Shown: piece after piece, positions 7,301-60,072 of the stretch | Position numbering within the stretch: the stretch's first letter is position 1 | How the letters are laid out: each line of letters opens with the position of its first letter | IMG/VR virus record: IMGVR_UViG_3300030329_002114 | Location: 1 to 64,000 of that record | Source of the DNA: a virus | Direction: 5' to 3' (one strand) | DNA length: 64,000 nucleotides | Translations under genes and position numbers: made by a program | Notes under the pieces: model-generated | Databases searched by the model: none | What the model was told of the DNA's origin: nothing | What the model saw: the letters and a program-made list of their open reading frames with translations, nothing else

Positions 7301-10300
7301 AAAAGTATGCCTGAGCCTTTTTCTGTAAGAATCGAAGAATTATTTGCTGGATATACATTAGAAGCATTTGGCAAATCTAAAAAGGTATCTGATGCTACTT
7401 GGGATGATATTAGAAATTTTCAAAGATTTATTCGTAGAGCAAAGGTTTCAGCATCAAATTCGCCTAGAGTTAAAAAACTTTACTATTATTTATTTCCTGA
7501 AAGAGTTGGAGAAAAGCAATTAAAGTATGATGTAAGTCAAGTATACAAAAGAACTGTTCCTTATGAACATAAACCCGGTGATATAGCCTTTATTGATATA
7601 AGACTTCCATTTAGCACAATGCAGTATTTAAGTGAGTCTTTTAATCAGATATATAATTTTGAGAATATAGATAAAGAGTATAATCAAGAATACACACAAA
7701 GATTCTATGGGTGGCGTGATCAAATACTGGGCATGGAAAATGGCACAACAGAGTTTTCACAATTGCATAGAGCTGCGATAGCAAAGATGTTAGCTGAAAG
7801 AGAATCTGTAGGTAAACAAGGAAGTAAAGAGTCTAAAAGAGCCCGTAGAGAATTTTATAATGAGCTATGGGAAGAAAACAAACCTTTTTATGAAAGCCTT
7901 AAAGATAAAATTTATAAAATAACTGAAGGTGGAAAACTTGTAGAAAAAACTGGTGCTGAAGTAATGGAGTGGATTGTAACTAAGCACCAAGATTTTTTTA
8001 ATGGGTTTTATCAAAAATGGATAAGAGCATTAGACAGAGAAGGAAACTCTATTTGGGATAGAGTAGATACTCAAAACAAATATGGTATTATTGATGAGCT
8101 TGTAGAGTTTAATAGCTTTGGTAGAATGAACTTAGAAAAGATAAGAAAAAAGCTATTACAACCCGCATCATTTGGTAAGGGCAGCATTATAGAAAGATTG
8201 ATTAATAGTTCTTCGTTGTCTGTTGATTTGCTAAACAGAATACAATATGAAATAATTTTAGAAAATAGAGTAAAGCAAAAAGGGTATAAACCAAACTCAG
8301 TTCAAGCTAAAAAGTTCAGAGAAAGAGTTAGAAAGCCATTATTATCTAACGGAGAGTACAATCCACAATCGTATACCTCTATTGGATATGTAGATGAATT
8401 CTATTGGCCTCAGATGGATCATATGTCTACAAAGCAAAGTAGAGCAAAGGTAAGAGAGTACATTAACAATCAGATAGGGTTTCTTAGATCTGAAGTTGGT
8501 CGCTATGCAGATGATTTATTAAATGGGGTTGTTGAATCCACAGACAAGTATAGAATTAAAAAGCAATTTATTGCTCAAAACAAACAGAGTGTTGTTGAGT
8601 TATTAGAAGGAAATTTAAGCAAAGAAGAGTTTATTAACCGATTTGTTGCACTTCAGGAACTTGGATTTGAAAGAAGTTTTAATTCAAGTACGCTAGAGGA
8701 TGGAGGGGCTGGAGAATTTGCTTACAAATGGCTTGCAAGTAAAAAGAATAGCAGAAGTTCATTAGATGATATAGGGTTTAATAGTAGACCCGGCAGCGGT
8801 AGAGAAAGGGGTGAGTCTCCTATGCCAGCTTTCAGTTTGGAGTTCGATGTTGTAGAGAACTATTCATCACAATGGATTAGTTCTTTTTATAAGAATTTAA
8901 CTGCACTTGTTTCTCACGATGCTATTAACAGATTTTCACAAAAGAATGTTTTATATAAAAAAGAAGATAGAGAAGATTGGGAAATAATGATGAAACTCTA
9001 TACTCGAAATGCAATGGGGCAGTCATCTATTTTCTCTCCAGATGTTATAGGCTTGGGTAAAGATTCTTTAAAAAGAACTCAAGATTTTGTAGCTAATACA
9101 GAAAAGATATTAAAGAAGGAAGAAATAAGTTCTGAACATAGAAAACAATATGAAGATGCTAAAGAGATTCTTAAAAAGGATAAGCGATTAAAAAAGATAA
9201 GAAAGACTGCATATTTTTGGACTAGCGATCAACAATGGGCAAAGCTTTTAAATAAACTTGTTTCTAATCGAGTTGGAGAAAAGTTATTTCCAGATATACC
9301 AAAATCTCCTGAAGCCCGTCAAAGATATTTAATTGATGCAGTTAAAAACATTGGTGCTTTTGAAGCAAAATGGTCTTTAATATCACTTTTATCACACCCA
9401 AAAACAGCAGTAGGTAATCTTTTAGGTGGTAATGTTAATACTATATCAAATAATGGATTACGTCACTTTTTAAGGACAAAGGATAAACCTTTTCTGTATA
9501 ATATTTTTAAAGGTGGAAAGCTTAAAGATGGCACTGAAATAACCCCTGACAATGTTTCTACTTGGCTAAATAGATTTGCTGAAGAATCAGGCGCATTAGA
9601 GTCTTTTATTGTATCTGAAGCATCTCTTGAAAGAGGGTTTAGAGGTAAAAAGGTAAATAACTTTTTATCTGAGTTTATAGAAGAAGTTAGAAAAGATTAT
9701 TCTATGCCAGATCAATCTTTGTACGACATTGCTAAAAAACACGGTATAAACAAAGCATTCGTAGATGGTGGTGCTTGGTTTATGAGAAAATCTGAAAGAA
9801 TATTAAGACGAGATTCTTTTCTTTCGCATTATTTAGCTAACTATGAAATACTAAAGGACATAGTGCCTAATCTTAAATATGATAACCCCTATCTAATAAG
9901 AATGGCAACAGAAGGTGTTAAAGCAACTCAATTTTTATATCACGCATCAGCTAGACCAGCATTTTCAGCAACATCAACAGGGAAGATTTTAACTAGATTT
10001 ATGCCTTTTGCTTGGAATTCAATAAGATTTAGAAGGCTAGCGTTTCAAAGAGCTGCAACATACGGTTTTGATATGAACACACTTCCGGGTAGAAGACTTC
10101 AAAGAATCTTAACACTTGATATGCTTACTTTTGCATTAGCTAATATATTTACTTCATCAATTTTTGATTCAGCATTACCACCTCCTATGTCTTATTTGCA
10201 AGATACTGCTGATTGGGTATTTGGTGACGAAAAAATGAGAGAAAGGGCTTTCTTTAACCAATGGCCTCATCCTGCACTAGCACCATTATCAACAATAACG

Positions 10301-10549
10301 GGTCCTTCACTAAGGTTGGTTTTAGCACCTACTAAAGCTTTAATAAATAACGATTGGGAACCCTTTTTAAACTATCAAGCTTGGACACTTGCTCCTTTTG
10401 GTAGGTTTGCAAGAAGTTTATATAGAACTGCAGAAGTCCCTGAAATGTGGGTAGAAGAACTGACTGGTTTTCCTATACATAGATTAGCACAGAAAATGAA
10501 AAAGGCACGCAAAGAAACAGAAGAAGAATTAACTGAGGTAGAAATCTAA
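1313..10549 (+). CDS. giant virion protein, putative virion-packaged single-chain two-barrel RNA polymerase (unit A)
   Basis: 3078 aa; EIDGYG, MRVP and DGMDVDGD (DxDGD at nt 5366-5380) motifs in order; Gly-rich N-terminal region; last large gene of the late module; collinear with 49931..59023. Confidence 0.8.
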   Translation: MNQYELQRYISVYKQNPYIFGDDFVDEIEKSSKEFDIPFQRNIEAEGDKQDSLVNQFLSGVSSGFTTLGWAEEPTSSAGQIAHSMGHLIGFAPAILSGPLGFAAKSTGVKAFGTAAKFLNRKSVPFYLAEKINKPIYKGLTKAGVNVDEYLKKGNVIADIATSAQELGVASAISSVWGGTDEVMDSYVHGAIFGGAFGSIGNFVNMGKMMNSANPAVRKGAEDFIWNKVVRAGLGSAVQGGMATAQGAPTSVQLYEYLLGGFFGYKHPNAKVKSGRQYIDSFYNKENHLYGDKLFGKEREMVYTEEYKNLDPIAQEYVTNHFQKSIGERFKYYNPQLELFKEDDASVASVLMKAEYLNHFKEENFAKRRNELLEERKKDKLSEEEETLAKIRTLDDIDAEHQRLQIGNIAAEITDKINGSKVKISNASDVVYNKLTKEQREEIKKGNVNIIYEVISGEQDRTMDLKEARDILNLDRPKSDQLEIDAPVHIRNMLTEIESNLKVDKPQLDILNDIIGIYNQSRKNRESFKEFFSQIEVSYPEYVATNKTKRELKSFFNRVSEEKLHGQISYDPVGNKIVQIRTHDLSGRRVADNKPPAPDEIHLKNKDLEDPLKPPKKPTKKRSSDDIEQEWLNWISTSQYSPDAGKDIIRKDIKGFDEVRSKIEYANAKNITYDEATNTFIDSKPGTSQKKGKKPSQKTLPPNYQIQELKTVKWGDKILNLYDKIYDRVQKKFTRVMNRKRWWNLTQKTNEVNEYYKIPKKDKGVERKFPYHPKAIESKNVGGKRAWTVNLVEWEKMISELMKIDPRTREFIQADFKEWNKEFGAGSNAKTKTLKKAYDIYQKALLSNYLYEPFAQFKNAQDRVKRETLIAATGVSQKIIDKYPNFEMVIVDDIPSGQHKTNSKGIEHEFFYTTKDGKTLSKKRLYESEIDGYGVLPTELYNEILSANGFDPTTSRIKPTIAAWVNGQLFLFKGGFHPSKAEYDVALKKPNRAIVMLSAAKAMPKGTQIYHGLASKNPDGSVKYEFKKRGTNKTVKNPRAIKIRMEDLRIDYGVREDSHSIETQTIKKQFHVLLNSLQVSREGFDSLMNEAFAPNIEGKTEANRVVRSLSENPENPIPDNFRIKDIGDKEFVYLVNNPGHPLFRKLLMEMIKKTKFREVSDTFGEENSLIELNDYVNRLQKWANYSDFNPIITMIEPELYQDMILRYRKNKYLYPEWKYSGAMWGAGVDPVTKIKHGAIKKGTFKLGEDADIPVSWGKNETLKSLWKKYQSNLEKLKDPKLKKDKKKLEALKTQTETIKNDLLDIAVMRVPSPAVSGTRMLTFDGFVKNNGKNKDYGAYLNPEDHYYLDGMDVDGDKVFIYQGLPEKFRDTIRKNKDELSVDINGKKATWENKAPDLNKDFGTREAPDFMKSRVSQYLPFALRKSGIASYDGKQGMGAVVNAKTVLNFMTADIIENGGKITLDLISSKGKKYGTVTLVTDEATLNGVKGLRRMAVEASSRTADSSEYWEMMDALEMRDVLLKSAFRIIHAKDLKGNKIDFKYNDIKNTQYGDLSDVNNKLYGRDWRRDKAWGIEEVQRSVENASSKEYKMNSILWLANKMAGSSIDVRYIKGNKAWRELVKAYNEVWKSPEIRQYFARKKFKITPLYLETDYVELEKRVMNLIDSEESKMRTIDSISGNNLRAMGLRRDKNLDPRYQQLFDQAWKDGVIKAHSPLKEAKLLINDAIDLYSAIVLGKKGSEIRDLIIQSGGTEKQALDFLGKLAEFAVIPKVQYRNRIQKIKKSHDPMKFATDDVDKKIADFQRQISEEAKKLNIDRQKALDYFHFYMIGSIYPQPYSSQHSLKLYRDAIAKEKNKPTEGPDKTKLRDDNFIAWAESVEQNWSKYYNKTSFTRFPLESKQVPEGIKKEFMSGFGKMWDVIQSDQPLNKINEFSGEALYPETVKSNQSGSRTRKQIETKVVLERFFDNVFKGKKIEELPKDVIPKDIPQVLKDLMTDLKSMPEPFSVRIEELFAGYTLEAFGKSKKVSDATWDDIRNFQRFIRRAKVSASNSPRVKKLYYYLFPERVGEKQLKYDVSQVYKRTVPYEHKPGDIAFIDIRLPFSTMQYLSESFNQIYNFENIDKEYNQEYTQRFYGWRDQILGMENGTTEFSQLHRAAIAKMLAERESVGKQGSKESKRARREFYNELWEENKPFYESLKDKIYKITEGGKLVEKTGAEVMEWIVTKHQDFFNGFYQKWIRALDREGNSIWDRVDTQNKYGIIDELVEFNSFGRMNLEKIRKKLLQPASFGKGSIIERLINSSSLSVDLLNRIQYEIILENRVKQKGYKPNSVQAKKFRERVRKPLLSNGEYNPQSYTSIGYVDEFYWPQMDHMSTKQSRAKVREYINNQIGFLRSEVGRYADDLLNGVVESTDKYRIKKQFIAQNKQSVVELLEGNLSKEEFINRFVALQELGFERSFNSSTLEDGGAGEFAYKWLASKKNSRSSLDDIGFNSRPGSGRERGESPMPAFSLEFDVVENYSSQWISSFYKNLTALVSHDAINRFSQKNVLYKKEDREDWEIMMKLYTRNAMGQSSIFSPDVIGLGKDSLKRTQDFVANTEKILKKEEISSEHRKQYEDAKEILKKDKRLKKIRKTAYFWTSDQQWAKLLNKLVSNRVGEKLFPDIPKSPEARQRYLIDAVKNIGAFEAKWSLISLLSHPKTAVGNLLGGNVNTISNNGLRHFLRTKDKPFLYNIFKGGKLKDGTEITPDNVSTWLNRFAEESGALESFIVSEASLERGFRGKKVNNFLSEFIEEVRKDYSMPDQSLYDIAKKHGINKAFVDGGAWFMRKSERILRRDSFLSHYLANYEILKDIVPNLKYDNPYLIRMATEGVKATQFLYHASARPAFSATSTGKILTRFMPFAWNSIRFRRLAFQRAATYGFDMNTLPGRRLQRILTLDMLTFALANIFTSSIFDSALPPPMSYLQDTADWVFGDEKMRERAFFNQWPHPALAPLSTITGPSLRLVLAPTKALINNDWEPFLNYQAWTLAPFGRFARSLYRTAEVPEMWVEELTGFPIHRLAQKMKKARKETEEELTEVEI

Positions 10550-24238: not shown

Positions 24239-24270
24239 AAGGGGGGCGCAATGCGAACACCCCCCTTTTT
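24239..24270. terminator. bidirectional intrinsic terminator-like hairpin
   Basis: AAGGGGGG...CCCCCCTTTTT between converging repressor and ParB genes. Confidence 0.65.
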
Positions 24271-24279
24271 AACCGAAGC

Positions 24280-41132: not shown

Positions 41133-41192
41133 CGAAATACATTTTTGGATAGGCGTAACTGGATTTATTTGGGTCTTTATATTGATTGTTAG

Positions 41193-41531: not shown

Positions 41532-41592
41532 TTGGGTTTATGGAAGTTTGTGCAAAGGTAGAGTCTATAATAAGAGGCAATGGAAATAATTA

Positions 41593-48678: not shown

Positions 48679-49200
48679 ATGGCAATGGATAGATATACAT
48701 CAGGCTTTGATATAGCCGATACCTTAGAAGATACCTTATTAAATTGGGTTATGTCTAATAGGAAATTACAAGAAAACGCTAGGCAGTTTAATAGAGACCT
48801 AGAAGAAAGAAAAAGGCAGTATGATGCAACTTTTGGAGAAGGCAAAAGGAGATATGATATAACTGATCAGCTTGGTAGAGATATGCGTTTAGGTGATAAA
48901 AAAATGGCTCAACAAATATTAGGTAGGGAAAGCGTAAAAGAACAAATAGAAAAATGGGATAGAGCTAGGAAAGCCTATACAAATGCTCAAGAAAAAAAGT
49001 TTTTTGGTATTGGTTTTGATGAACAACGTTCTATAGAGAAATTTGAAAAAGAAGTTGGCCCTCGACCTGAATTAAGACCAATGACTTTACCAGATTATCC
49101 TTTTATGCCTAGTTATGGAATGGATCAAAGTATTATTAGTCAAGCTCCTTCTCAAAGAAGAACAAATTTTTTAAATGAACTTATGCTAGGAGGTATGTAG
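48679..49200 (+). CDS. putative ejection protein
   Basis: ATG 48679 after AGGAGG; coiled coil ENARQF...KRQYD. Confidence 0.55.
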   Translation: MAMDRYTSGFDIADTLEDTLLNWVMSNRKLQENARQFNRDLEERKRQYDATFGEGKRRYDITDQLGRDMRLGDKKMAQQILGRESVKEQIEKWDRARKAYTNAQEKKFFGIGFDEQRSIEKFEKEVGPRPELRPMTLPDYPFMPSYGMDQSIISQAPSQRRTNFLNELMLGGM

Positions 49201-49931
49201 TGAATGGCATAGATCCTTATCAGGTAAGAGAACTGATAGAAGATTATAATAGTAACCCACAGAGATACTCAGATGGGGAGGCAGAAACTATAGCTGTATT
49301 AGCGCAAGCTATAGGTGCTCGTTTTCAAAGAGATGGTAAGCCTTTTCAAAAGGGTTTATTTGATGTATTAGATACTGCTACCTTTGATCTGCTTCCAAAT
49401 GAATTGAGACCAACTTCACGTGGAGAATCTGTCTTTGGAGAAACTGATGCAGAACAATTAGCTAGTGCTTTGGGTATTGGAGCTGGTGTTGTAGGTGGTA
49501 TTGGTGGGGCTTATAAAGGCGGCAGGGGTCTTTTTAATTATTTTAAAAAGAAAAAAGGTCGCAAAGGTGGTAGTGATCCAATATCAAATGTAAGAGAACA
49601 AACTAAATCAAATGTAAGAGAACAAACTAAACTTCTTGGAGAACCTCAACGTTTATTGTCTGGGCAAACTTCTAGACAAACTAGACGCAATAGGTTTCCA
49701 TTAGATTCTAGAAGTGGAAATCCTATTCCTATGACAAGTAGAGCTGGAGATCCAATTCCTATGGGAGGAGATACTCTTAGTAAAATACGTGAGTTTGAAT
49801 ATAATATGGGAATTGGCGATAGTTATTTTGATACGCAAAAATTAATAAACTATGCTGGTTTAAATATTAAACCAAATCAATTAACTAGAAGTCAAAGAAA
49901 TGAAATTATTCAAAGACTTATGGATAGTTAA
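49200..49931 (+). CDS. putative ejection protein sharing its N-terminal module with the giant proteins
   Basis: Y..LI..Y..NP...F.R...TFDL.P pattern; Gly-rich TM-like segment; SNVREQTK duplicated. Confidence 0.6.
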   Translation: MNGIDPYQVRELIEDYNSNPQRYSDGEAETIAVLAQAIGARFQRDGKPFQKGLFDVLDTATFDLLPNELRPTSRGESVFGETDAEQLASALGIGAGVVGGIGGAYKGGRGLFNYFKKKKGRKGGSDPISNVREQTKSNVREQTKLLGEPQRLLSGQTSRQTRRNRFPLDSRSGNPIPMTSRAGDPIPMGGDTLSKIREFEYNMGIGDSYFDTQKLINYAGLNIKPNQLTRSQRNEIIQRLMDS

Positions 49932-52900
49932 TGGCATCACCTTATGAGGCGATAAAAGTTCAAAATTTAATAAGGACTTACAAGACCAATCCAACTATGT
50001 TTAATGACGACCAGCTTGATGAGCTGGAACGTCTTGCTGAAAACAATGAAATAGAATTTAAGAGAAGACAAAGCGAATTTTCTTTAAGGCGTGGTCTTCA
50101 ACAGGCACAGGCTGGTTTCATTGAAGGGCTTACTACCTTTGATCTTATTCCTAAGGAACCTCGTAATACAGGTGAAGCTATATTTAGACAACTCGGTCAC
50201 CTTGCTGGTTTTGCTCCTGCAATATTAAAAGCTCCAGTGATGGGAGTTGTTCAGGTTGCTTCTAAAGTTACTGGAAAAGAAGTTGCAGATATAGCTAAGC
50301 AACCTTTTACAAGTGCTGTTTTAGATGGCATTAACGCATTAGATGCGATTGCTGTTCCTATGATAGGATCTAGATTAACTAAAAAAGGATTCGATGCTGC
50401 TCTTACTAAAACTGGAGCAGAATCCCTAGAGTTTTTAAAACGAGGTTCACGAACTAGAGCAATCACAGAAGAAGCCTTAGGGCTTGCATCAGCTAGTGCT
50501 ATTAGCAATATATGGAAGGGTAAAGATGCTATTGTTGATTCTTATATTGGAGGTGCCATCGCAGGTGGAGCCTTTGGTGGTATTGGTAATTTTGTTTCTT
50601 TAGGTAATTTATATAAAGGCACACCTCAACAAGTAGAACAAGCCAATAAGCTTTTGCGTGCAGGTGTAGCCAGTATGTTTATGGGTCTTCCTTCTACCCT
50701 TAGAAACGATCCAACTGAAATGCAGATATATGAATATCTATTAGGTGGTTTCTTTGGATACAATACAAGACCAGCTAAAGAGGTTGAGGCTGGTAAATGG
50801 ATAAATGAAAATAGGGCTAGAGAAGAAATATTTAGACCAGAAACATCTAAAGATTGGAATAAAGTAAATAAGAATGCTCAAGAATTTATTATTCGAGAGC
50901 ATCCTATGACTAAAGAATTAAACTCAGAAGGTCACGGTGGCAGTACTGGTGCTGCTTTGGGTTATTTAGAAAGAAGATTTCCAAATGCTAAATGGAGAGA
51001 AGGAGCATTAAATAATCTTAAGAAAAATAATAAAGAAGCAACAGAATCCAACATACAAGATTTTTACAGAAAGAAAGCTTATGAAGCTTACAGAATAGAA
51101 AAGAAAGTTTTTGAGAATGCTGTATTAGCAAACTCATCTATTATTAATGATGAGAGACTCGATGCTATGGATCAGGCTCAACGTGACCAATTTAAGATTG
51201 AAGATATATCAGACTCTATAAGTAAATCTTCAGATAAATATGGCGACAGAAAAAGCGTTGGAGAAACTATTATTGAAGTAGCTGAAAATTCTTCAGTAAA
51301 TAACGTTCCTAATCGTGAATTGTTTATAAGAGAACTTAGTAATAGGTTTGATTCTAAGACTATAAAAAAATTAGATTCTAAACTTAGGGGTTGGTTTAAT
51401 AACTATAGTCAAAGATTTGTAGAACAAGATATTGTCAATATAGATGGACAGGAATACAGAATTATTACTAAGGAGAAAATAGGCGAAGTAGATGTAGGTG
51501 AAAAGGTAGATGTATTGCCAGCAACATATTTAGTTCCTGAAGGTGAGTTTCGTTTAATGACTCATTTTATAAGGGAAGTCCCAAGTGAAAATGGTCAAGT
51601 AAAGCAAGAAGCAATTAAGATAATGAAGACGGATCTTGTATTTGATTATGGCGTTCCCACTGTTAAAAATAGATTAGATGGCAATGCATATATTAGATTG
51701 CAAAATTTATTAGAAGAGAATGGCAGATACATAGTTAGTGGCATTAAAGATAAAGACTATGTAATGACTGGTCGATTTAGAGATGAGAACTTAACTCTTG
51801 ATAATGTGTTTGATATTTTATCTAATAAACAAGCTGGTATTATAACAAGAAAACAAGTAGAAGACGCTTATAATAGATCGTTAGAAAAAGAAAGAGAATT
51901 ATCTGAGTTTGTGCGTGCAGGTGAATATGAAGCATTAGAAAAACTTCATGAGCGTAAATGGATTTCCAATTTCGTTAACTTAGCCGAAATGAACAATTTA
52001 AAGCTAGAAGATGCTTGGGCTATTATAGACCCAGCTCAAAATTTTGGTAAGAGTGTGGCTGACTTAAATAAGCGTATGTCACTTGTTACTAATAGAATGA
52101 CTCCAATGGTTAAAGAAAGCTTTGAGAATGTAGCAGGGATGAATAAAGGTGAAAAGTTTAATGTAATTCAAATAGAAGATAATTTAGGAATTGGAACTGG
52201 AGTATCAGATACAGATGGATACATGGCTTTTAGACATGATATATTTGATGCAACTACTAAATCATTTGGAAGAGATGTTAAAAACACTGGCCAGAATAAA
52301 CCTGTTATTGCTGCTAAAACACCATATGGATTTTTTGCAACTAAGAGTAATGGTCAAAGGGCTCATGAATCTCTTAATGAATGGATGATGAAGAACGATG
52401 TTCATGCTGTTATATATACAAGTGGATCTAAATTAAAGGGTAATAATCCTATTTCTACTTTAAAGTATGAAAAAGGTAATTATGTTTCTGATAATATTAA
52501 TCGAATAGAAATACCCATAGATAAATTACAAGTAAGCTCTGGTACTTATGAGAATACTAAAAAAGATGTTAGAGGCGCTAGTACGCCTATGCAAAAATTT
52601 GGTCAGGCAAACGAAGAACAAGCATTCGGCTTTGCTGACAAATGGATTGATACTGTAGTAAAACCATCTCTTGAGGGATCTGAAAGAGGTCGGAAAATTT
52701 TAGAGAATTATCAAAAGACTAATGATTTAACAGAAATGTCTAAGGCTTTTGAAAATAAAGATATTAAATTGGAAGAACTTCCTTTTAGATTTGTTATTGA
52801 TACTCTTTTAAAAAATCCTGATTCTAAATTAGGAAGATTTCTTTCTGATAGGTTAATGCGTTTAGAAGTTGAGGGTGAATTAGATAAGACAGTATTTGAA

Positions 52901-55900
52901 GATTCATTTTCACCTGATTCGGACACTGCATTTAGAGAGTATCATAGAACTAATGACTTGTTAGCTGAAGCGTTAAGGGGTTCTTTTGTAGCTAAACACG
53001 CAATGCCTTTTAATAAAAAGAATTATTTCAATGCCTTAAGAAAGTTTGTATTAAAACGATTTGCTAATCCACATATAGAAACTGCAGGTAAGTCTTGGTT
53101 AAAAGGCTATACTCCTGAGATGCTTAATTTTTTTGACATAGATCCTTATTCTACTACTCAAGCTACTATAGTAAAGCCTGATTCAGCAAATTCTATAAAT
53201 ATAATGAGGGGCTCTAAGTATGGAAACCCTTTTATCATGCCTTCTGTTTACGATAAGAGTCCATCCTATTATAAAAATAAAGGATTTATAAGAGCTGGGA
53301 GCACGAAAGAAGCTACAGAAAGATACGAAAGCTGGTTAAGGGGTAAAACTGACAAAGGATATATGCCAGATAAAAGAGATGGAATATTAAACGATATTAG
53401 ATCTGGAAAATTATCTGGTAAATCCCTAGGTTATTTTAAACCTGAAGCAAAAGATAGCCATGCAGTTCGATTAGTTAAGCTTATTAATGAATGGTCTCCA
53501 AGAACTTTGAAAGAAGGAGAAATATACCTTGATAACGGTTTTCAACAAATGCCTGTGGTATTGCTCGGTAAACAATACACTCTTGGCGAAGTTTGGGATA
53601 TGTATACTGGGCGAAAAACCATGCCTGATGGTGTTAAAAAACCAACTAAAGAGGAGTGGAATGATGCTTTTACTTTTCTTGCTATACGTACCCCTGCTGA
53701 TTCAATGTCTGGTACACGTAAGCTACGATTTAGAGGCTTTACTGGGCAAAGAGGAGCAGGTTCCATTACGCACCATAAAGACAACAAGTATCTTGGTGGT
53801 GCAGATAAAGACGGAGACAGTATTAAAATCTTTCAAAACATGAACAAAGATTTAATTAAATACTTTGAAAATGTAAAAGACGAAAGAGGGCATTGGGCTG
53901 ATTTTCTCAATGTTAAAAAAGATTTTATAGTAGATCTTGAAGGTGCTGAAGTTGAGTATTATAAAAATATAGTATCAACTAATTACAAGCAACTTGATTC
54001 AGAAATTAATTGGGTTCGAGGTGGTAAAAGTGGTAAGCGCCCTATTTTTACTCAATATTATGGAGATAAAAATACGGAATATTCTTATACTGAATCAGGG
54101 AAGCGTGGCGACTGGACTCCCCTAGAATGGACTCCAGAGTTGATTAAATTAAAACGTGAAGTAGAAAGAATAACTGGTTATAAATTCAATAGTGCTGTTG
54201 TAAATAAGTATAAGGATGGTAAAGATAGTATAGGTTTCCATAGAGACAATGAACCAGAGTTAATGAGGTCTGACAATAGAGGGCCTGTTATAGCTTCTAT
54301 TAGTTTTGGAAGTAAAAGAAATTTTATATTAAAAGATAATACTGGTAAAAAAACTTCATTTGCCTTGGAGAATGGTGATTTGTTTTTAATGAAAGGCGAT
54401 ACTCAAAAAAATTATACTCATGGAATAGCTAAAGAAAATACAACATCCCCTAGAATAAATATTACATTTAGAAGAACTAATTATGGAAGAAGGGATCCAA
54501 GAAAAAATCCTCAACCATTCAGAACAAAAACAAAAACATACGAAGAAGCATTAGACGAATTGTTTAAGGGTGATGTATCTCAACAAGTTGTAGATGATTT
54601 TAATAAAAATAAAATTATGATGTTTTCCCCATCTTTTAGATTTGAAGTTGCAAGAAATGCTAGTATGGGCAAGGGTGGTTTAGGTTTTGGTTTAACTGCT
54701 AAGATTGATCTTCAGAATATGTATGATTATGTTAAAGCAAAAGGTGGGTCTATTAAACTTAAAAACCCCAAGGGTGAAGTTTTTACATTGGAAATAAAAC
54801 ATAATTCACCGTATGAAGGAGTTAGTGCTCATAGATTTTTCTTAGACTTAGGAACTAAGGTAGTAAATGTATCAGCAGATGCAAGCAACGATCCTAACTT
54901 AAGACCTTATAGTGAGTATAGAGATATGCTTTCTTCTTCTATATTTAAAATAAACAATAAAGATGCAAAATTTGGTCAGATTAAAAATCTTGTTAAAGGT
55001 ACGCCATTAGAAGGTATTATGATGTCCAATAGAAATATTAAACCACATCAAAAATATCTAAATGAAAAAACTAATGAGCGTGAAGCTCCAGATGTTTTTC
55101 AAGTGCTTGATAATATTAATAAAGCTAATGAGTTAATGTTTTCAGATCTTGATGATAGTTTTTTTGTACGCACAGTAAATCCTAAATTAAATCAATTACT
55201 ACAAGAATCTGGATTTAAGGTTGGTAATTATTTATTTCCAGAGTTACAAAGGGCTCATAAAATTTTATATGATTCTTTTATAACAAGTGAAGTTGAAGGT
55301 ATCCCAAAAAACCCAGATGCATTATACAAGTGGGAGGTTGTAGATAAAAAAGTTACAGGTAGGTTGATAATAAACAATAATAAAACTTCAAAGCAGTTAG
55401 AAGGATTCTATAAAATACTTGCAAAGGAGTTATCTTTTACAAGTCCTAATCGTATGAAAAATCTTTTATCAGAAAAAAGTCGAAATTTTAACCCAGATCA
55501 AGCCTTAGATTTTTTAGGTAAGGATATGGGTCAGTATGCTTTAATGGAACTATTAACTGGGCAATACGTAGCTGTGCAGAATGCATTTGCAAAACAAGGT
55601 AGGAATGTGAATACAGTTATTGAACTCCTTCCTGAAATAAAAAAGAATGCATATGAAATAAAAAGACTAGCTGACACAATCTCCAGAAGAAGAGACGGTG
55701 GTGACAATGTTAGGAATGTTGATTTAGATGCATTGATATACAAACATAAGACTAGACTAGCTAACCTTGAAAGAGCTCAAGGACTAGAAGAGGGTATGTT
55801 ACAAAACTATTTACATTATTGGCTATTAAGTCCTATAAGAGCGCTTGTAAAAGGTCAAAATAAACCTCAGTATTATAAAGCAATACATGGGTCTCAAATG

Positions 55901-58900
55901 ATACCAATGTCTGTTAAAAGAAATTTTTACAATCGCATGGATAAAATATATAAACGTGCTCAAAGCTCTGATATGTTAAGTATAAAACAAGCAGATTTTA
56001 AGACAGCTTTAAATAAATTAGAGTCTACTCAAAAATTATCTACTACAATAAATGAAGCTATTAAAAGTAAATCATTAGAGAACCTTGCTTTATTTGAATC
56101 TGATTTAAAAGAAGTTAGAAAGTTTCAAGAGTCTGTAAAGAATAACTCATTAATGGATAGAGACTTTAATGAGTGGTATACAGCTTTTACAAAGAACATG
56201 GTAGATGGCCCCACTAAAGATGCTACAACTATAACAATGCAAGATATTAAACTTGTCAATAGGTATCTAGATAGTTTAAATACAAGTAAAAACATGGAGT
56301 TAAAATTAGCTCAGTTTTATCAACATCCCTTAACTGTAGATGAGATAATGCAGTCAAAGGGCTTATTTGGTGGATATACAAAGACTATTAATGAACCAGT
56401 CTTAACAAGTAAGGGTTTAACAAAACGTAATGTTAAAGTTATTATGTCTCCTGTTGGTAATATAGCTAATTATTTTAAAAAATCAGAAGCTGGTATTAAT
56501 TTATATGAAGGTCGCATGAAATTAGAAACTACTGCTATAGATAAAATATTAAATAAGTTAACTCCCAATCAAAGAAGGCAATACGCAGAAGCTCTATTTG
56601 CTTATCGTGAAGGTATTGATAAGGATGGAAAACCATATTCATTAAAAAATGTTCCTAAAGAAATCAATATGACAAAGTTTAAAAAACTTGATACGGAGCT
56701 TACTAAATTTTGGAAGCAAATGGAAAACAGTTGGATAACTACGAAAGATATTAACGGCAAGCGTTTTAATTGGTCTAGGGTAGATAAAGAAAAAAGATAT
56801 GGTAAGGTCAATGAATATATTGAATACGATTCTAATGGTAAGTTTAACTTTAAAAAGTTTCATGATAAAGTTATAAACGCTAGAAATCAATCTAAAGATA
56901 TTATTAGAAATGTTGGCATTGAGGGTGTCTTAAGATATAGAATGGAAGAATCTATTGAAAAAGAAATCTTATCAGATAAGTCAATTAAGAATAAGAAAGC
57001 TTATAGAGAGATGAGAAGATCTGAATTATCAAGACCTTATCAAAATAGATCTTATGAAAATTATGTTCATCATTCTTTTAATAATGCATCAGAAGGTTTA
57101 TTAAAAGAGCAAGCTGAATACGTTGCATCTATTAAAGACCCTGCAGAAAGATCAAGGATTGCGAGACTGCTACAAACAGAAAATCCTTTTATTAACGTAA
57201 ACGATATTTTAGAAATATCTATAGAAGGTAAGACAAAAGATTTTAATAAGTACGCAGTCTACAGTGAAGTTCTTGAAAAGCAAGGAGACATTCCCTATAA
57301 ACGATCCTTTGATTCTCTTCAAGATTATCAAAATAAGGCTATAAATGGATATTTTAGAAATCTAATGAAGCTAAAAGCTCAAAATGAATTAGATCTTATG
57401 GTTAAAAACACTAAAGATTATAAGCCCTCTAAGCATGAGCAAAAAGAATTTGAAAAATTATACAGAGGTAGTAAACTACCAAAAGAACTTCGTTATAATA
57501 GCCATGTAGATGTTTGGGCTGATTATGTCAGGCTTTATGCTAGAGATTCTTTAGGCAACCAATCGTTCTTAAGTGACAGAATGGTAACTCCTCAAGGTAA
57601 AAAATTATTACATTTAAACAAGAAAAATTTATGGTATGGAACTTCAGATGAAGCAATTATCAATAAGATGGAAAAGCTATACAAAAGTAAGCTAGGTAAG
57701 GAAAGAAATATTCCATTTTTTAATAAAGATGCGATACCAAAAGATCCTGTTGCAAGAAAAGAATACTTTAGTCGTGTGATTCATAACTTAGGTAGAATGG
57801 AAGCTCAGTATGAGTTATTAACATTATTAGCTAATACTGGTACATGGACAACCAATATATTTGGTGGAGCTACTATGACCATTGGTAGTGCTGGTGCAAA
57901 GAACTATGCAAATTCATTTAACAACAAAAGAGTTTATGATACATTGTTAAGTGATGCCAATGGTAATCCTGTATTAAAACTACTAGATGGAACAAGCGTT
58001 AGAAATAGAAAACAATTACTAACATTTTTAGAAGAGCGTGGTGTTATAGATAACTTTATTAAAAATGAATTTGAATATAATGATAGGCTTAAGATAGGTT
58101 TAAAGAAAGCTGGTGTTAGCATAAAAGACTTTCAACGGGATTTAATTAAAGCTGCAAAGAGTAAAAAAGGCAATCGTGATGAGAGTGTTATGGAGGTTGT
58201 TAAAAGATATGGCGTTACAGATTTAATGCTTGAGGCTGGTGGTTTCTTAATGAAACAATCTGAACGTGTTAATCGACTTAATGCTTTTATAGCTCATGGT
58301 TTGCAGGCTGTTGAAGGCTTTAAAGAAGCTGGTAAAGAATTATCTTTAGCTGATCAATATGTTTTTGAAAAAGCAGAGCGTGGAATTGAAATGACTCAAT
58401 TCTTATATCAAAATGCTCATAGACCAGCGTTTATGAGAACTTCAATGGGTAAAGTTCTCGGTAGATTTAAGCTATTTGTTTTTAATAGTGTTCGTATGCG
58501 TAAAGAATTTTATAAACAAGCTAAACTTAATGGCTTTAAACAAGGATCTGAATCTTATGAAAGATTTAAAGATACCTTTGCTATTGACATGATGATGTAT
58601 GCATTAGGCAGTGCATTCATGTTCAGCTTGTTTGATACTACATTGCCACCGCCTTGGGACTGGGTGCAAGCTTTGGCTGATTACACTTTTGGTGATAAAC
58701 GTGAACGTGAAATGGCATTTTTCGGTTCAAAGCTTGGCCCTCTTAATGTATTAAAACCTCCTATAGCTAGAGTTCCTGAAGCCTTTGGAGAGCTATTAAC
58801 TGGGCAATACGAGGATTTTACTAATTATACTGTCTATACCATGTTTCCATTTGGAAGAGGAATCAGGCAGATAAAACAGCTAACAGATGATAGACCGTTT

Positions 58901-59023
58901 CGTGGAATAGAGAGAGCACCTGAAATACTTTTTAGGATACCAAGAACTCAAGTTATGAGTAGAATAAAAAGAATGCAATCAGAGAATGAAAAAAGACGTG
59001 CCATTGAAGAGCTGTTAAATTAA
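49931..59023 (+). CDS. giant virion protein, putative virion RNA polymerase with inserted DUF4326-like and AlkB domains (unit B)
   Basis: 3030 aa; DTDGY, IRTP, GGADKDGD (DxDGD at 53804-53818); RGSKYGNPF insert; FHRD...THGI...RINITFR AlkB insert. Confidence 0.82.
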   Translation: MASPYEAIKVQNLIRTYKTNPTMFNDDQLDELERLAENNEIEFKRRQSEFSLRRGLQQAQAGFIEGLTTFDLIPKEPRNTGEAIFRQLGHLAGFAPAILKAPVMGVVQVASKVTGKEVADIAKQPFTSAVLDGINALDAIAVPMIGSRLTKKGFDAALTKTGAESLEFLKRGSRTRAITEEALGLASASAISNIWKGKDAIVDSYIGGAIAGGAFGGIGNFVSLGNLYKGTPQQVEQANKLLRAGVASMFMGLPSTLRNDPTEMQIYEYLLGGFFGYNTRPAKEVEAGKWINENRAREEIFRPETSKDWNKVNKNAQEFIIREHPMTKELNSEGHGGSTGAALGYLERRFPNAKWREGALNNLKKNNKEATESNIQDFYRKKAYEAYRIEKKVFENAVLANSSIINDERLDAMDQAQRDQFKIEDISDSISKSSDKYGDRKSVGETIIEVAENSSVNNVPNRELFIRELSNRFDSKTIKKLDSKLRGWFNNYSQRFVEQDIVNIDGQEYRIITKEKIGEVDVGEKVDVLPATYLVPEGEFRLMTHFIREVPSENGQVKQEAIKIMKTDLVFDYGVPTVKNRLDGNAYIRLQNLLEENGRYIVSGIKDKDYVMTGRFRDENLTLDNVFDILSNKQAGIITRKQVEDAYNRSLEKERELSEFVRAGEYEALEKLHERKWISNFVNLAEMNNLKLEDAWAIIDPAQNFGKSVADLNKRMSLVTNRMTPMVKESFENVAGMNKGEKFNVIQIEDNLGIGTGVSDTDGYMAFRHDIFDATTKSFGRDVKNTGQNKPVIAAKTPYGFFATKSNGQRAHESLNEWMMKNDVHAVIYTSGSKLKGNNPISTLKYEKGNYVSDNINRIEIPIDKLQVSSGTYENTKKDVRGASTPMQKFGQANEEQAFGFADKWIDTVVKPSLEGSERGRKILENYQKTNDLTEMSKAFENKDIKLEELPFRFVIDTLLKNPDSKLGRFLSDRLMRLEVEGELDKTVFEDSFSPDSDTAFREYHRTNDLLAEALRGSFVAKHAMPFNKKNYFNALRKFVLKRFANPHIETAGKSWLKGYTPEMLNFFDIDPYSTTQATIVKPDSANSINIMRGSKYGNPFIMPSVYDKSPSYYKNKGFIRAGSTKEATERYESWLRGKTDKGYMPDKRDGILNDIRSGKLSGKSLGYFKPEAKDSHAVRLVKLINEWSPRTLKEGEIYLDNGFQQMPVVLLGKQYTLGEVWDMYTGRKTMPDGVKKPTKEEWNDAFTFLAIRTPADSMSGTRKLRFRGFTGQRGAGSITHHKDNKYLGGADKDGDSIKIFQNMNKDLIKYFENVKDERGHWADFLNVKKDFIVDLEGAEVEYYKNIVSTNYKQLDSEINWVRGGKSGKRPIFTQYYGDKNTEYSYTESGKRGDWTPLEWTPELIKLKREVERITGYKFNSAVVNKYKDGKDSIGFHRDNEPELMRSDNRGPVIASISFGSKRNFILKDNTGKKTSFALENGDLFLMKGDTQKNYTHGIAKENTTSPRINITFRRTNYGRRDPRKNPQPFRTKTKTYEEALDELFKGDVSQQVVDDFNKNKIMMFSPSFRFEVARNASMGKGGLGFGLTAKIDLQNMYDYVKAKGGSIKLKNPKGEVFTLEIKHNSPYEGVSAHRFFLDLGTKVVNVSADASNDPNLRPYSEYRDMLSSSIFKINNKDAKFGQIKNLVKGTPLEGIMMSNRNIKPHQKYLNEKTNEREAPDVFQVLDNINKANELMFSDLDDSFFVRTVNPKLNQLLQESGFKVGNYLFPELQRAHKILYDSFITSEVEGIPKNPDALYKWEVVDKKVTGRLIINNNKTSKQLEGFYKILAKELSFTSPNRMKNLLSEKSRNFNPDQALDFLGKDMGQYALMELLTGQYVAVQNAFAKQGRNVNTVIELLPEIKKNAYEIKRLADTISRRRDGGDNVRNVDLDALIYKHKTRLANLERAQGLEEGMLQNYLHYWLLSPIRALVKGQNKPQYYKAIHGSQMIPMSVKRNFYNRMDKIYKRAQSSDMLSIKQADFKTALNKLESTQKLSTTINEAIKSKSLENLALFESDLKEVRKFQESVKNNSLMDRDFNEWYTAFTKNMVDGPTKDATTITMQDIKLVNRYLDSLNTSKNMELKLAQFYQHPLTVDEIMQSKGLFGGYTKTINEPVLTSKGLTKRNVKVIMSPVGNIANYFKKSEAGINLYEGRMKLETTAIDKILNKLTPNQRRQYAEALFAYREGIDKDGKPYSLKNVPKEINMTKFKKLDTELTKFWKQMENSWITTKDINGKRFNWSRVDKEKRYGKVNEYIEYDSNGKFNFKKFHDKVINARNQSKDIIRNVGIEGVLRYRMEESIEKEILSDKSIKNKKAYREMRRSELSRPYQNRSYENYVHHSFNNASEGLLKEQAEYVASIKDPAERSRIARLLQTENPFINVNDILEISIEGKTKDFNKYAVYSEVLEKQGDIPYKRSFDSLQDYQNKAINGYFRNLMKLKAQNELDLMVKNTKDYKPSKHEQKEFEKLYRGSKLPKELRYNSHVDVWADYVRLYARDSLGNQSFLSDRMVTPQGKKLLHLNKKNLWYGTSDEAIINKMEKLYKSKLGKERNIPFFNKDAIPKDPVARKEYFSRVIHNLGRMEAQYELLTLLANTGTWTTNIFGGATMTIGSAGAKNYANSFNNKRVYDTLLSDANGNPVLKLLDGTSVRNRKQLLTFLEERGVIDNFIKNEFEYNDRLKIGLKKAGVSIKDFQRDLIKAAKSKKGNRDESVMEVVKRYGVTDLMLEAGGFLMKQSERVNRLNAFIAHGLQAVEGFKEAGKELSLADQYVFEKAERGIEMTQFLYQNAHRPAFMRTSMGKVLGRFKLFVFNSVRMRKEFYKQAKLNGFKQGSESYERFKDTFAIDMMMYALGSAFMFSLFDTTLPPPWDWVQALADYTFGDKREREMAFFGSKLGPLNVLKPPIARVPEAFGELLTGQYEDFTNYTVYTMFPFGRGIRQIKQLTDDRPFRGIERAPEILFRIPRTQVMSRIKRMQSENEKRRAIEELLN

Positions 59024-59970: not shown

Positions 59971-60072
59971 GGGGCAATGGCATAACTGCCAATCAACAAC
60001 ACAAAGATATTGTGCTAACTTTTATTTAGTGTCGTTGTTTTTTTCCTATTGATTTTTATTTTTATGCCCCAA
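59971..60072. repeat. 102-bp element, copy 2
   Basis: 99/102 identical to 27420..27521, same orientation. Confidence 0.92.

What the first reader, a model, noticed from the sequence alone, without database searches (positions are those of the whole stretch)
53160..54480. Virion RNA polymerase with AlkB and DUF4326-like domains inserted around its catalytic site
Seen: in the 3030-aa protein, about 35 residues after the DxDGD motif, there is a complete ALKBH2/3-like 2OG-Fe(II) dioxygenase (~53920-54480: YGD..YSY, FNSAVVNKYKDGKDSIGFHRD, IASISFG, LENGDLFLM, YTHGI, RINITFR; HxD, H and R intact). About 100 residues before the motif is a DUF4326-like domain (~53190-53500). The collinear unit A paralog has neither; its flanking sequence runs straight through. 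Known: AlkB enzymes reverse m1A/m3C lesions in single-stranded nucleic acids, and AlkB fusions occur in replicases of some plant RNA viruses. Inference: a capsid-delivered polymerase that repairs or de-modifies its template or transcript during early transcription, either as built-in transcription-coupled repair or as a counter to host base-modifying defences. Best candidate for an undescribed system here.
Basis: partly seen in the sequence, partly recalled or inferred. Interest (0 to 1): 0.9.

Follow-up and report, generated by a model that had tools for sequence, protein, structure and literature searches.

The report
Enzyme cassettes inside phage virion polymerase
A giant protein of an uncultured marine phage is predicted to be an injected RNA polymerase, and it carries two optional, swappable enzyme modules (an AlkB base-demethylase and a DUF4326 domain) spliced into loops of its core, probably so that these enzymes enter the host together with the phage DNA.

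Summary
The 3030-aa protein (49931-59023) carries a complete ALKBH2/3-like AlkB domain (Pfam 1.5e-25; HxD, H and RxNxTFR intact) starting 27-33 residues after its DKDGD motif. A borderline DUF4326 domain ends 98 residues before the motif. The unit A paralog has neither.

An AlphaFold model of residues 640-1830 matches only single-chain two-barrel RNA polymerases at the top: phi14:2 gp66 (Foldseek E 2e-6) and QDE-1 (Z about 13-14). The polymerase reading is therefore supported on a predicted fold.

The placement "around the catalytic site" is not a conserved design:
- A near-identical strain in other seawater runs lacks both inserts.
- Among relatives, AlkB sits in at least seven different places and DUF4326 in three.
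- Two 93%-identical relatives carry AlkB or DUF4326 in the same region.
- The AlkB cassette is 87% identical between backbones that are far more diverged, with dN/dS of about 0.09.

I read both as functional, mobile payload cassettes on an injected polymerase, that is, a polyvalent virion protein. The substrate is untested. My searches found no paper describing this. The scan has noted AlkB cassettes on crAss-like virion polymerases in other genomes, mostly near the C-terminus.

The parts
49931..59023 (+). Giant 3030-aa gene (P0001), the last gene of the + strand structural block. It is the predicted virion-delivered two-barrel RNA polymerase that carries the payload cassettes.
   Evidence: ORF. 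Upstream lie the terminase (30235), portal (31790), major head protein (34978) and a tail-fibre-like gene (47421). 176 giant homologs of 1868-3222 aa, the best 120 listed.
51848..55420 (+). Modelled polymerase core, residues 640-1830.
   Evidence: AlphaFold2 on alignment A2 (53 sequences) gave pLDDT 72.5 and pTM 0.71. The Foldseek PDB top hit is 6vr4_A, phi14:2 gp66, at E 2e-6, the only hit at E<=0.001. VIA-align gives Z 13.9-11.3 for QDE-1, P74 gp62, RDR2, gp66 (572 aligned residues) and P32 gp64; multisubunit RNAP largest subunits score about 9.
52205..52441 (+). Invariant residues of the first beta-rich block, the candidate first barrel: D762, G763, K790, S831, K834.
   Evidence: These columns are invariant in A1 (54 sequences) and A2 (53 sequences). 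Strands are predicted at fragment residues 103-230. Their assignment to the first barrel is inferred, not superposed.
53147..53512 (+). DUF4326-like cassette, residues 1073-1194, lying in a predicted loop.
   Evidence: The empty-site joint 53146->53513 replaces 366 nt with 30 nt in contigs of runs X9 and X14. The flanks are coil in the model.
53684..53818 (+). Second-barrel signature RxP...GGADKDGD, with the catalytic Asp triad D1292/D1294/D1296 at 53804-53818.
   Evidence: R1253, P1255, D1292 and D1294 are invariant; D1296 is invariant in A2 and at least 90% conserved in A1.
53897..54550 (+). AlkB (ALKBH2/3-like) cassette, residues 1323-1540. It lies between the catalytic barrel and the long helix that I take to be the bridge helix.
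   Evidence: The empty-site joint 53897->54550 replaces 652 nt with 37 nt. Homology to the cassette in other backbones spans 53915-54538/54544. dN 0.07 and dS 0.78 against L004.
54239..54472 (+). AlkB catalytic residues: H1437-x-D1439, H1497 and R1508...R1514.
   Evidence: Aligned to the corresponding ALKBH3 stretches. The same residues are kept in 18 of 18 giant-borne cassettes. Positions.
54629..54739 (+). Long 37-residue helix (residues 1567-1603), the candidate bridge helix.
   Evidence: Helix at fragment residues 928-964, pLDDT about 90. gp66 has its bridge helix downstream of its DFDID motif. The equivalence is inferred; I could not see the coordinates.
1313..10549 (+). Paralogous giant gene of the second phage unit (P0002, 3078 aa), which has neither cassette.
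   Evidence: No Pfam or PHROG family hit. Similar to P0001 at the N-terminus (37%), the C-terminus (28%) and around the motif. It runs through both sites in the alignment.

Best explanation
P0001 is a single-chain two-barrel RNA polymerase of the crAss gp66 / QDE-1 type, embedded in a roughly 3000-aa protein of an uncultured marine phage of about 45 kb. The protein is most likely packed in the virion and ejected with the DNA; this step is inferred.

Two self-contained enzyme cassettes are spliced in frame into loops of the polymerase core. A DUF4326 domain occupies residues 1073-1194 and an AlkB dioxygenase occupies residues 1323-1540. They are optional payloads, not parts of the polymerase mechanism. 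Related phages gain, lose and swap them at many loops, and selection keeps them enzymatically intact.

Because they ride on the injected polymerase, they would be in the cell before any phage gene is expressed. AlkB would then use Fe(II) and 2-oxoglutarate to remove 1-methyladenine/3-methylcytosine-type alkyl groups. The likeliest targets are the incoming phage DNA where it is single-stranded, or the first transcripts. The DUF4326 domain would deal with an ADP-ribose-derived molecule, as Iyer et al. predict.

What matters is the tether to the polymerase, not the exact site. Shown here: the domain identities, the predicted fold, cassette mobility and purifying selection. Inferred: packaging, timing, substrate.
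For: Fold:
- Foldseek's only hit at E<=0.001 is the phi14:2 virion RNAP.
- The top 13 VIA rows are all single-chain two-barrel RNAPs, Z 13.9-11.3.
- The Asp triad and the RxP signature are conserved.

Context: the gene is the last of the terminase-portal-head-fibre block.

AlkB is intact, and 18 of 18 giant-borne cassettes keep HxD, H and RxNxTFR. dN/dS is about 0.09 against L004.

Optional:
- One 5973-nt contig of run X9 joins across both sites at about 98% identity. Run X14 shows both joints too.
- P0004, 98% identical, lacks both cassettes.

Mobile:
- AlkB is present in 13 of 121 P-numbered giants (12 by phmmer, plus P0098 by Pfam) and in 5 of 60 locus ORFs.
- It starts 33-35, 69, 120, 203, about 494 and about 610-640 residues after D1292, at about P0001-equivalent residue 2290 (P0098), and about 1000 residues upstream in P0149.
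- DUF4326 is present in 8 of 121 giants and 5 of 60 locus ORFs, at three sites.
- P0069 and P0070, 93% identical over 1886 aa, carry AlkB or DUF4326 in the same region.
- The cassette is 87% identical in amino acids (85% in nucleotides) between the window and L004, while the best-conserved backbone block is 57% (dN 0.07 against 0.40).
- A second AlkB-bearing backbone occurs in the same runs.

The four mapped insertion points lie in coil between predicted secondary-structure elements.

Precedents:
- N4-type virion RNAPs are fused to effector domains (PMC5512222, passages).
- gp66 is injected and transcribes single-stranded or denatured DNA (bioRxiv 10.1101/2020.03.07.982082, passages).
- Plant-virus replicase AlkB domains repair RNA (PMC2553587, abstract start only).
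Against: - No virion proteomics or transcription data exist for this uncultured family. Packaging rests on gene position and analogy.
- The fold match is to a predicted model. The tool notes that Z of about 13 can occur by chance for helix-rich models, and sequence profiles do not reach any RNAP in PDB.
- Both cassettes have low confidence inside the large model (fragment residues 437-540 and 687-894), and I could not read the coordinates. The position of AlkB relative to the nucleic-acid channels is therefore unknown.
- The AlkB substrate is untested. ALKBH2 and ALKBH3 score nearly alike, so a DNA-versus-RNA preference cannot be read from the sequence.
- The window's own DUF4326 score is just under Pfam's cut-off, and no solved fold matched (best Z 2.7).
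- The sporadic, strain-level distribution fits an arms-race gene at least as well as a repair gene.
Confidence: 0.55

Rival explanations
1. Counter-defence or host take-over payload. The injected AlkB erases methyl groups placed by the host, either a defence that alkylates or methylates invading nucleic acid, or the host's own marks on DNA, tRNA or rRNA. DUF4326 destroys ADP-ribose-derived defence signals. The two cassettes together would be an anti-immunity kit.
For: - Sporadic distribution: 13 of 121 giants carry AlkB.
- Presence or absence differs between near-identical strains.
- Cassettes are swapped in one region of a 93%-identical pair.
- Iyer et al. predict that DUF4326 processes ADP-ribose-linked phosphates in virus-host conflicts (PMC9503650, one passage).
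- They argue that sporadic phage AlkB more likely resets methyl marks than repairs DNA (PMC7824862, passages).
- Polyvalent virion proteins are typically conflict effectors (PMC5512222).
Against: - I know of no defence that writes AlkB-type lesions (recalled, not searched).
- The domain groups by sequence with the repair enzymes ALKBH2/3.
- No host target is known, because the host is unknown.
Confidence: 0.25
2. AlkB is positioned next to the catalytic centre so that it scans the template strand or the nascent RNA as it passes, making this a polymerase with built-in transcription-coupled direct reversal.
For: In this protein and in P0007, P0008, P0044 and L004, the cassette sits in the loop between the catalytic barrel and the candidate bridge helix. 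gp66-type enzymes use single-stranded templates, which are also the preferred AlkB substrate class (recalled).
Against: - Only 5 of the 19 AlkB-bearing giants seen here use this loop: P0001, P0007, P0008, P0044 and L004.
- The others carry AlkB about 120 to 990 residues downstream or about 1000 residues upstream.
- The geometry could not be modelled because the cassette has low pLDDT in the large model.
Confidence: 0.12
3. The giant protein is a structural or ejection protein that only descends from a polymerase, and the cassettes are neutral hitch-hiking domains.
For: There is no sequence-level link to any RNAP and no expression or proteome data.
Against: - The Asp triad and other core residues are invariant across highly diverged members.
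- Cassette dN/dS is about 0.09, and catalytic residues are kept in 18 of 18 cassettes.
Confidence: 0.05
4. Assembly artefact: AlkB is a separate gene fused by mis-assembly.
For: The 89-kb contig is itself a join of two phage genomes.
Against: - Contigs from two runs of two studies tile both junctions with 0 differences.
- The identical protein is on record from a 47,292-bp contig with 19 cluster members.
- P0007, P0008, P0044 and L004 show the same in-frame architecture.
- The insert adds exactly 205 codons net, and the DUF4326 insert adds 112.
Confidence: 0.01

Closest known systems
Virion-packaged RNA polymerase gp66 of crAss-like Cellulophaga phage phi14:2 (PDB 6VR4)
   Same: Both are single-chain two-barrel polymerases inside a giant protein encoded with the structural genes. 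Both have a DxDxD motif with a non-glycine allowed at position 4. gp66 is the best Foldseek match (E 2e-6), with VIA Z 13.2 over 572 residues.
   Different: No detectable sequence similarity. The genome here is about 45 kb rather than about 100 kb. The motif is DKDxD, not DFDID. No enzyme cassettes are reported inside the gp66 core in the passages I read. Injection and activity are shown for gp66 and only inferred here.
Polyvalent proteins of phages and conjugative elements (Iyer, Burroughs, Anand, de Souza, Aravind 2017, PMC5512222), including N4-like virion RNAPs fused to metallopeptidase, ART, lysozyme and PBECR domains
   Same: Several unrelated enzyme domains sit in one virion-associated polypeptide encoded beside late genes. 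They are thought to act at or just after DNA entry. The domain content varies between relatives.
   Different: The polymerase there is the T7-like N4 type, not a two-barrel enzyme. AlkB, dioxygenase and DUF4326 occur 0 times in that paper's main text. Here the domains are inserted inside loops of the polymerase core rather than strung at its ends.
Human ALKBH3/ALKBH2 and E. coli AlkB direct-reversal dioxygenases
   Same: Sequence match at E 1.8e-19 to 1e-17. The Fe(II) triad and the 2-oxoglutarate arginines are conserved.
   Different: Those are free-standing proteins of about 200-290 aa. Here the domain is embedded in a 3030-aa protein. The nearest stand-alone relatives are 36-49% identical.
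AlkB domains in replicase polyproteins of plant RNA viruses (Flexiviridae; PMC2553587, PMC544882)
   Same: AlkB is fused in frame to a viral polymerase-containing protein, occurs sporadically among relatives, and is proposed to clean the virus's own nucleic acid (abstract starts only).
   Different: Those are RNA viruses of eukaryotes with an RNA-dependent replicase made after entry, not a virion-delivered DNA-dependent enzyme of a phage.

Membership tests
AlkB family (Pfam PF13532, 2OG-Fe(II) dioxygenase, ALKBH2/3-like) | Profile match above the curated cut-off | tested here: met
   91 bits against a cut-off of 31.2, E 1.5e-25. PDB ALKBH3 at E 1.8e-19.
AlkB family (Pfam PF13532, 2OG-Fe(II) dioxygenase, ALKBH2/3-like) | Fe(II) triad HxD...H and the 2-oxoglutarate-binding RxNxTFR arginines | tested here: met
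   H1437, D1439, H1497, R1508 and R1514. The same residues are kept in 18 of 18 giant-borne cassettes.
AlkB family (Pfam PF13532, 2OG-Fe(II) dioxygenase, ALKBH2/3-like) | Oxidative demethylation of m1A/m3C | not testable with these tools
   Needs an enzyme assay.
DUF4326 (Pfam PF14216) | Profile match above the curated cut-off of 25 bits | tested here: inconclusive
   The window segment scores 24.7 bits (21.3 inside the whole protein). 3 of 6 homologous segments pass (25.8, 26.3, 27.3), and it is the only family hit in all 6. 30 of 30 Atlas hits are DUF4326 clusters. The BFVD top hit is a DUF4326 phage protein at E 0.028.
DUF4326 (Pfam PF14216) | Rhodanese-phosphatase-like fold and activity on ADP-ribose-linked phosphates (predicted by Iyer et al., PMC9503650) | tested here: inconclusive
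   The model of the domain has pLDDT 73. The best PDB Z is 2.7 with nothing clear, and there is no PDB sequence hit.
Single-chain two-barrel RNA polymerases (crAss gp66 / QDE-1 / RDR type) | Two double-psi beta-barrel core fold | tested here: met
   Tested on a predicted model only. Foldseek 6vr4_A at E 2e-6. VIA Z 13.9-11.3 for 13 two-barrel RNAP entries ahead of everything else.
Single-chain two-barrel RNA polymerases (crAss gp66 / QDE-1 / RDR type) | Metal-binding DxDxD motif in the second barrel | tested here: met
   GGADKDxD. The first two Asp are in 121 of 121 rows; the third is Asp in 120 and Glu in 1. Invariant in A2.
Single-chain two-barrel RNA polymerases (crAss gp66 / QDE-1 / RDR type) | Bridge helix and trigger loop downstream of the motif | tested here: inconclusive
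   A confident 37-residue helix at residues 1567-1603 fits a bridge helix, but I could not inspect the superposition.
Single-chain two-barrel RNA polymerases (crAss gp66 / QDE-1 / RDR type) | Template-dependent RNA synthesis; packaging and injection | not testable with these tools
   No cultured member. Only the gene position at the end of the structural block.
Polyvalent proteins (Iyer et al. 2017) | Two or more disparate enzymatic domains in one polypeptide encoded next to virion genes | tested here: met
   Polymerase core plus AlkB plus a DUF4326-like domain. The neighbours are head and tail genes.
Polyvalent proteins (Iyer et al. 2017) | Zincin-like metallopeptidase for processing the polyprotein (a common theme, not obligatory) | tested here: inconclusive
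   No such Pfam hit in P0001. Some relatives carry an HExxH-bearing insert without any Pfam match.

The most novel reading that the evidence does not exclude
The loops of an injected two-barrel RNA polymerase act as an in-frame display rack for exchangeable enzymes. In this phage the AlkB, held between the catalytic barrel and the bridge helix, removes m1A/m3C from the single-stranded template or the nascent RNA while the enzyme transcribes the incoming genome. That would be an RNA polymerase with built-in direct base repair, the first of its kind.
Probability: 0.13. Interest if true: 0.85.

Novelty: new variant of a known kind. Interest (0 to 1): 0.62.

Why it matters
If the reading holds, it extends the polyvalent injected-protein idea in three ways:
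- from N4-type to crAss/QDE-1-type polymerases;
- from terminal fusions to insertions inside the catalytic core;
- to a new payload, a direct-reversal DNA/RNA demethylase.

Nature has already supplied the controls. Near-identical filled and empty alleles coexist in seawater, and sister phages carry AlkB or DUF4326 in the same region. One can therefore ask directly what an enzyme delivered in the first seconds of infection is worth to a phage.

It also shows that a polymerase core tolerates 120-220-residue domains in at least four mapped loops, which is useful for protein engineering. Finally, it points to a large uncultured marine phage family of about 45 kb with a two-barrel virion polymerase that has no BLAST-level relative in the GenBank phage collection searched.

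Tried and rejected
Sequence links to a polymerase:
- phmmer of P0001 against PDB found only AlkB chains.
- A 2706-position profile of 54 giants found no polymerase in PDB (best E 0.2, designed helical proteins).
- PHROGs gave no polymerase family.
- tblastn against 50,697 GenBank phage records matched only the AlkB part, in 6 records.
The polymerase reading therefore rests on the predicted fold and the motifs.

DUF4326 fold:
- The PDB profile search gave 0 hits.
- The PDB-wide structural search gave a best Z of 2.7. This shows nothing either way.

Other inserts of relatives: of the 9 segments sent, one is a divergent AlkB (P0098) and 8 have no Pfam family at E<=0.01.

Conserved DNA or peptide joints at cassette borders, a lead from earlier scan notes on other genomes: I compared the flanks of 6 AlkB and 6 DUF4326 cassettes at protein level and ran blastn of the window against 8 loci. 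I saw no shared linker or letter-identical joint. This was a small test and is not proof of absence. No target-site duplication is visible at the two window junctions.

Host: the scan of 185,579 species genomes gave one locus. It is a 46,061-bp contig of a Prochlorococcus single-cell assembly with a 25%-identical relative. That is too distant to name a host for this phage.

The 102-bp repeat has no Rfam match.

Literature: searches found no paper describing AlkB within a virion RNA polymerase. Residue-level equivalences to gp66 are therefore not checked.

Parts of the stretch without cover in runs X9 and X14 are used only where a contig joins across them.
Full report
WHAT IS THERE

The window is the first 64 kb of a single 88,986-bp contig. 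That contig consists of two collinear, diverged phage genomes of about 44.5 kb each. Unit B runs from 29317 to about 73500. Unit A runs from 73808 to the contig end and continues from 1 to about 29000. Twenty protein pairs between the units are 27-91% identical. The finding lies in unit B's giant gene, 49931-59023 (3030 aa, P0001). This is the last gene of a + strand block holding the large terminase (PHROG 38, E 3.9e-78), the portal (E 7.8e-71), the major head protein and a tail-fibre-like protein. Unit A has a paralog, P0002 (1313-10549, 3078 aa). It resembles P0001 at the N-terminus (37% over 289 aa), at the C-terminus (28% over 546 aa) and in a 79-residue block around the acidic motif.

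THE OBSERVATION

AlkB is certain. Pfam 2OG-FeII_Oxy_2 scores 91 bits against a cut-off of 31.2 (E 1.5e-25, residues 1380-1514). PHROG 21963 'alkylated DNA repair' gives E 1.1e-21. Human ALKBH3 and ALKBH2 are the best solved relatives (E 1.8e-19 to 1e-17). H1437-x-D1439, H1497 and R1508/R1514 are in place.

DUF4326 is borderline but consistent:
- The isolated segment scores 24.7 bits against a cut-off of 25.
- 3 of 6 homologous segments pass the cut-off, and no other family is hit.
- 30 of 30 ESM Atlas neighbours are DUF4326 clusters.
- A model of the domain (pLDDT 73) has phage DUF4326 proteins as its best, weak matches in the viral fold library (E 0.028). It has nothing clear in PDB (best Z 2.7).

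P0002 has neither domain. The AlkB cassette begins 27-33 residues after D1296, and the DUF4326 cassette ends 98 residues before D1292.

One correction concerns the motif. The Gly of 'DxDGD' is not a family feature. Across 121 giants the motif is GGADKDxD with G, A, S or I at x. The first two Asp are in all 121 rows; the third is Asp in 120 and Glu in one. This parallels crAss-like gp66, whose motif is DFDID.

IS IT A POLYMERASE?

Sequence methods do not reach any polymerase. I therefore modelled residues 640-1830 with an alignment of 53 sub-regions taken from the window and from IMG/VR loci. The model has pLDDT 72.5 and pTM 0.71. The core is confident, with most blocks above 85. Both inserts have low confidence because few rows contain them.

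Foldseek against PDB gives one hit at E<=0.001: 6vr4_A, the virion-packaged RNA polymerase of crAss-like phage phi14:2 (E 2e-6). QDE-1 entries follow (about 2e-3), then the largest subunits of cellular RNA polymerases. VIA-align's second look puts 13 entries of single-chain two-barrel polymerases on top: QDE-1, P74 gp62, RDR2, gp66 with 572 aligned residues, and P32 gp64, at Z 13.9-11.3. Multisubunit enzymes follow at about 9.

Together with the invariant RxP...GGADKDxD block and invariant Lys/Ser/Asp residues in the upstream beta-rich block, this supports a two-barrel RNA polymerase. The caveat is that the fold is predicted and that Z near 13 is not decisive by itself for a partly helical model.

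A confident 37-residue helix (residues 1567-1603) follows the AlkB insert and is the natural bridge-helix candidate. In gp66 the bridge helix also lies downstream of the motif. I could not see coordinates, so I cannot say where AlkB sits relative to the channels.

THE INSERTS ARE OPTIONAL CASSETTES

Logan contigs of two 2014 marine runs from two studies tile the filled form across both AlkB junctions with no differences. One of these runs may be the window's own source.

Runs from 2025 and 2023 (X9, X14) hold the empty form. One 5973-nt contig, about 98% identical on the flanks, joins 53146 to 53513 with 30 other letters in place of 366. It also joins 53897 to 54550 with 37 other letters in place of 652. 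These are in-frame differences of 112 and 205 codons. The 37 letters encode the linker seen in P0004, a protein 98% identical to P0001 that lacks both domains.

In the same 2014 runs a second contig carries the AlkB cassette at about 85% identity (53915-54538) and then continues into a different, P0044-like backbone.

THE CASSETTES MOVE

Of the 121 P-numbered giants, 13 carry AlkB: 12 by phmmer plus P0098 by Pfam. Of 60 giant ORFs read from IMG/VR loci, 5 do. One more, P0149 (3331 aa, same family, motif GGADLDGD), came from the search of 1.84 billion representatives.

Relative to the first Asp of the motif, the AlkB envelope begins:
- 33-35 residues downstream in P0001, P0007 and P0008;
- 69 residues downstream in P0044 and L004, which is the same loop with a longer linker;
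- 120 residues downstream in P0028;
- 203 residues downstream in P0049;
- about 494 residues downstream in P0087 and P0088;
- about 610-640 residues downstream in P0046, P0082, P0089, P0069, L018, L026 and L034, and 737 in L028, which also has a DUF4326 insert in between;
- at about P0001-equivalent residue 2290 in P0098;
- about 1000 residues upstream in P0149.

DUF4326 occurs in 8 of 121 giants and 5 of 60 locus ORFs. It lies about 230 residues upstream of the motif, about 190-200 downstream, or about 650 downstream. P0069 and P0070, 93% identical over 1886 residues, carry AlkB and DUF4326 respectively in the same region.

In a tree of 38 AlkB domains, the giant-borne domains fall into three well-supported groups apart from a clade of 15 of the 17 free-standing AlkBs. 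Four of the 42 domains were dropped before the tree because they were shorter than 150 aa. The window's cassette is 87% identical to that of L004/P0044 (85% in nucleotides). The best-conserved backbone block around the motif is 57% identical (dN 0.07 against 0.40). The cassette therefore has a younger common ancestor than the proteins that carry it.

THE CASSETTES ARE FUNCTIONAL

dN/dS between the window and L004 cassettes is about 0.09 (dN 0.07, dS 0.78). All 18 giant-borne cassettes aligned keep HxD, the distal His and RxNxTFR. The four insertion points that I could map fall in coil between predicted secondary-structure elements.

HOW IT MOST LIKELY WORKS

The pattern is that of a polyvalent virion protein. 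Iyer et al. describe N4-type virion polymerases fused to metallopeptidase, ADP-ribosyltransferase, lysozyme and RNase domains. They argue that such proteins deliver activities needed at the moment of invasion (PMC5512222, passages).

Here the carrier is a two-barrel polymerase and the payloads sit inside its core loops. I infer, but have not shown, that the protein is packed and ejected as gp66 is. AlkB and DUF4326 would then be in the cell before any phage gene is expressed.

For AlkB the family's known chemistry is oxidative removal of m1A/m3C-type alkyl groups from single-stranded DNA and RNA. gp66-type enzymes transcribe single-stranded or denatured DNA. A tether to the polymerase would therefore keep AlkB near melted template and nascent RNA. 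Because the site varies so widely, the tether rather than a fixed geometry is what is conserved.

A repair role is plausible for DNA that has sat unrepaired in a virion.

The main rival is counter-defence or mark erasure. The strain-level presence and absence fits it. So does the published prediction that DUF4326 processes ADP-ribose-derived molecules in virus-host conflicts (PMC9503650, one passage), and the view that sporadic phage AlkBs reset methyl marks (PMC7824862, passages). I put repair or cleaning of the phage's own nucleic acid ahead of this, but not by much.

COMPARISON AND NOVELTY

The closest known systems are:
- gp66 of phi14:2: same fold class, no sequence similarity, no reported internal enzyme inserts;
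- polyvalent proteins: same logic, different polymerase type, and no AlkB or DUF4326 in that paper's text;
- ALKBH2/3 and E. coli AlkB: same enzyme family, but free-standing;
- the AlkB domains of plant-virus replicases: same idea of a polymerase-linked AlkB, but in RNA viruses and made after entry (PMC2553587 and PMC544882, abstract starts only).

My searches found no paper describing AlkB in a virion polymerase.

Earlier notes of this scan report AlkB cassettes as swappable add-ons, mostly near the C-terminus, of crAss-like virion polymerases in other genomes. I did not test those. New here relative to those notes are the small phage family of about 45 kb, the insertion inside the catalytic core, the number of sites, and the filled and empty alleles seen directly in seawater runs. 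I rate this a new variant of a known kind.

LIMITS

- Supplements were closed.
- There is no cultured host. The only genome hit is a 25%-identical relative on a Prochlorococcus single-cell contig.

Noticed in passing
whole contig: window 1-64000 plus 64001-88986 of G000: The 88,986-bp contig is two collinear, diverged phage genomes of about 44.5 kb joined head to tail (20 protein pairs, 27-91% identical). An 84%-identical 776-nt stretch (40854-41620 against 88211-88986) ends exactly at the contig end. The identical giant protein is on record from a 47,292-bp contig. The join may therefore be an assembly product at a shared region rather than a real 89-kb genome.
   Followed up: partly
window 27420-27521 and 59971-60072: A 102-bp element is 97% identical between the two units, in non-equivalent gene contexts. 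It is neither a tRNA nor an Rfam family.
   Followed up: partly
window 12438-13503: Unit A has a tRNA-Gly(GCC) gene directly upstream of a tyrosine-integrase-like ORF (Pfam Phage_integrase, E 6e-12). This suggests that unit A's phage is temperate and integrates at a tRNA gene. I saw no integrase counterpart among the unit B pairs.
   Followed up: no
relatives P0103 (residues 1911-2057), P0047 (1832-1981), P0011 (1278-1366): A third recurrent insert of about 70-150 residues occurs at different sites. It has an HExxH motif in P0103 and P0047 (zincin-like by eye) and no Pfam match. It may be a further payload type or a processing peptidase.
   Followed up: partly
relatives P0069 and P0070: Two giants 93% identical over 1886 residues carry AlkB (1811-2012) or DUF4326 (1825-1957) in the same region. 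This is a natural cassette swap.
   Followed up: partly
window 49200-49931: The 243-aa ORF just upstream of the giant gene resembles the giant protein's own N-terminus (29% over 105 aa). It may be a duplicated ejection or packaging module.
   Followed up: no
L075 (= L050), a 46,061-bp contig of a Prochlorococcus single-cell assembly: It was the only hit in the scan of the 185,579 species genomes. It is a whole phage-sized contig with a 25%-identical giant protein in a Prochlorococcus SAG. This is a possible host clue for a distant branch of the family.
   Followed up: no
window 17761-25977, minus strand: Unit A's replication block encodes a DnaB-like helicase fusion (607 aa), a Sak-type single-strand annealing protein, a DUF932 protein and a ParB-N-like protein. 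None of the ten ORFs scanned there was a DNA polymerase or a second RNA polymerase.
   Followed up: partly
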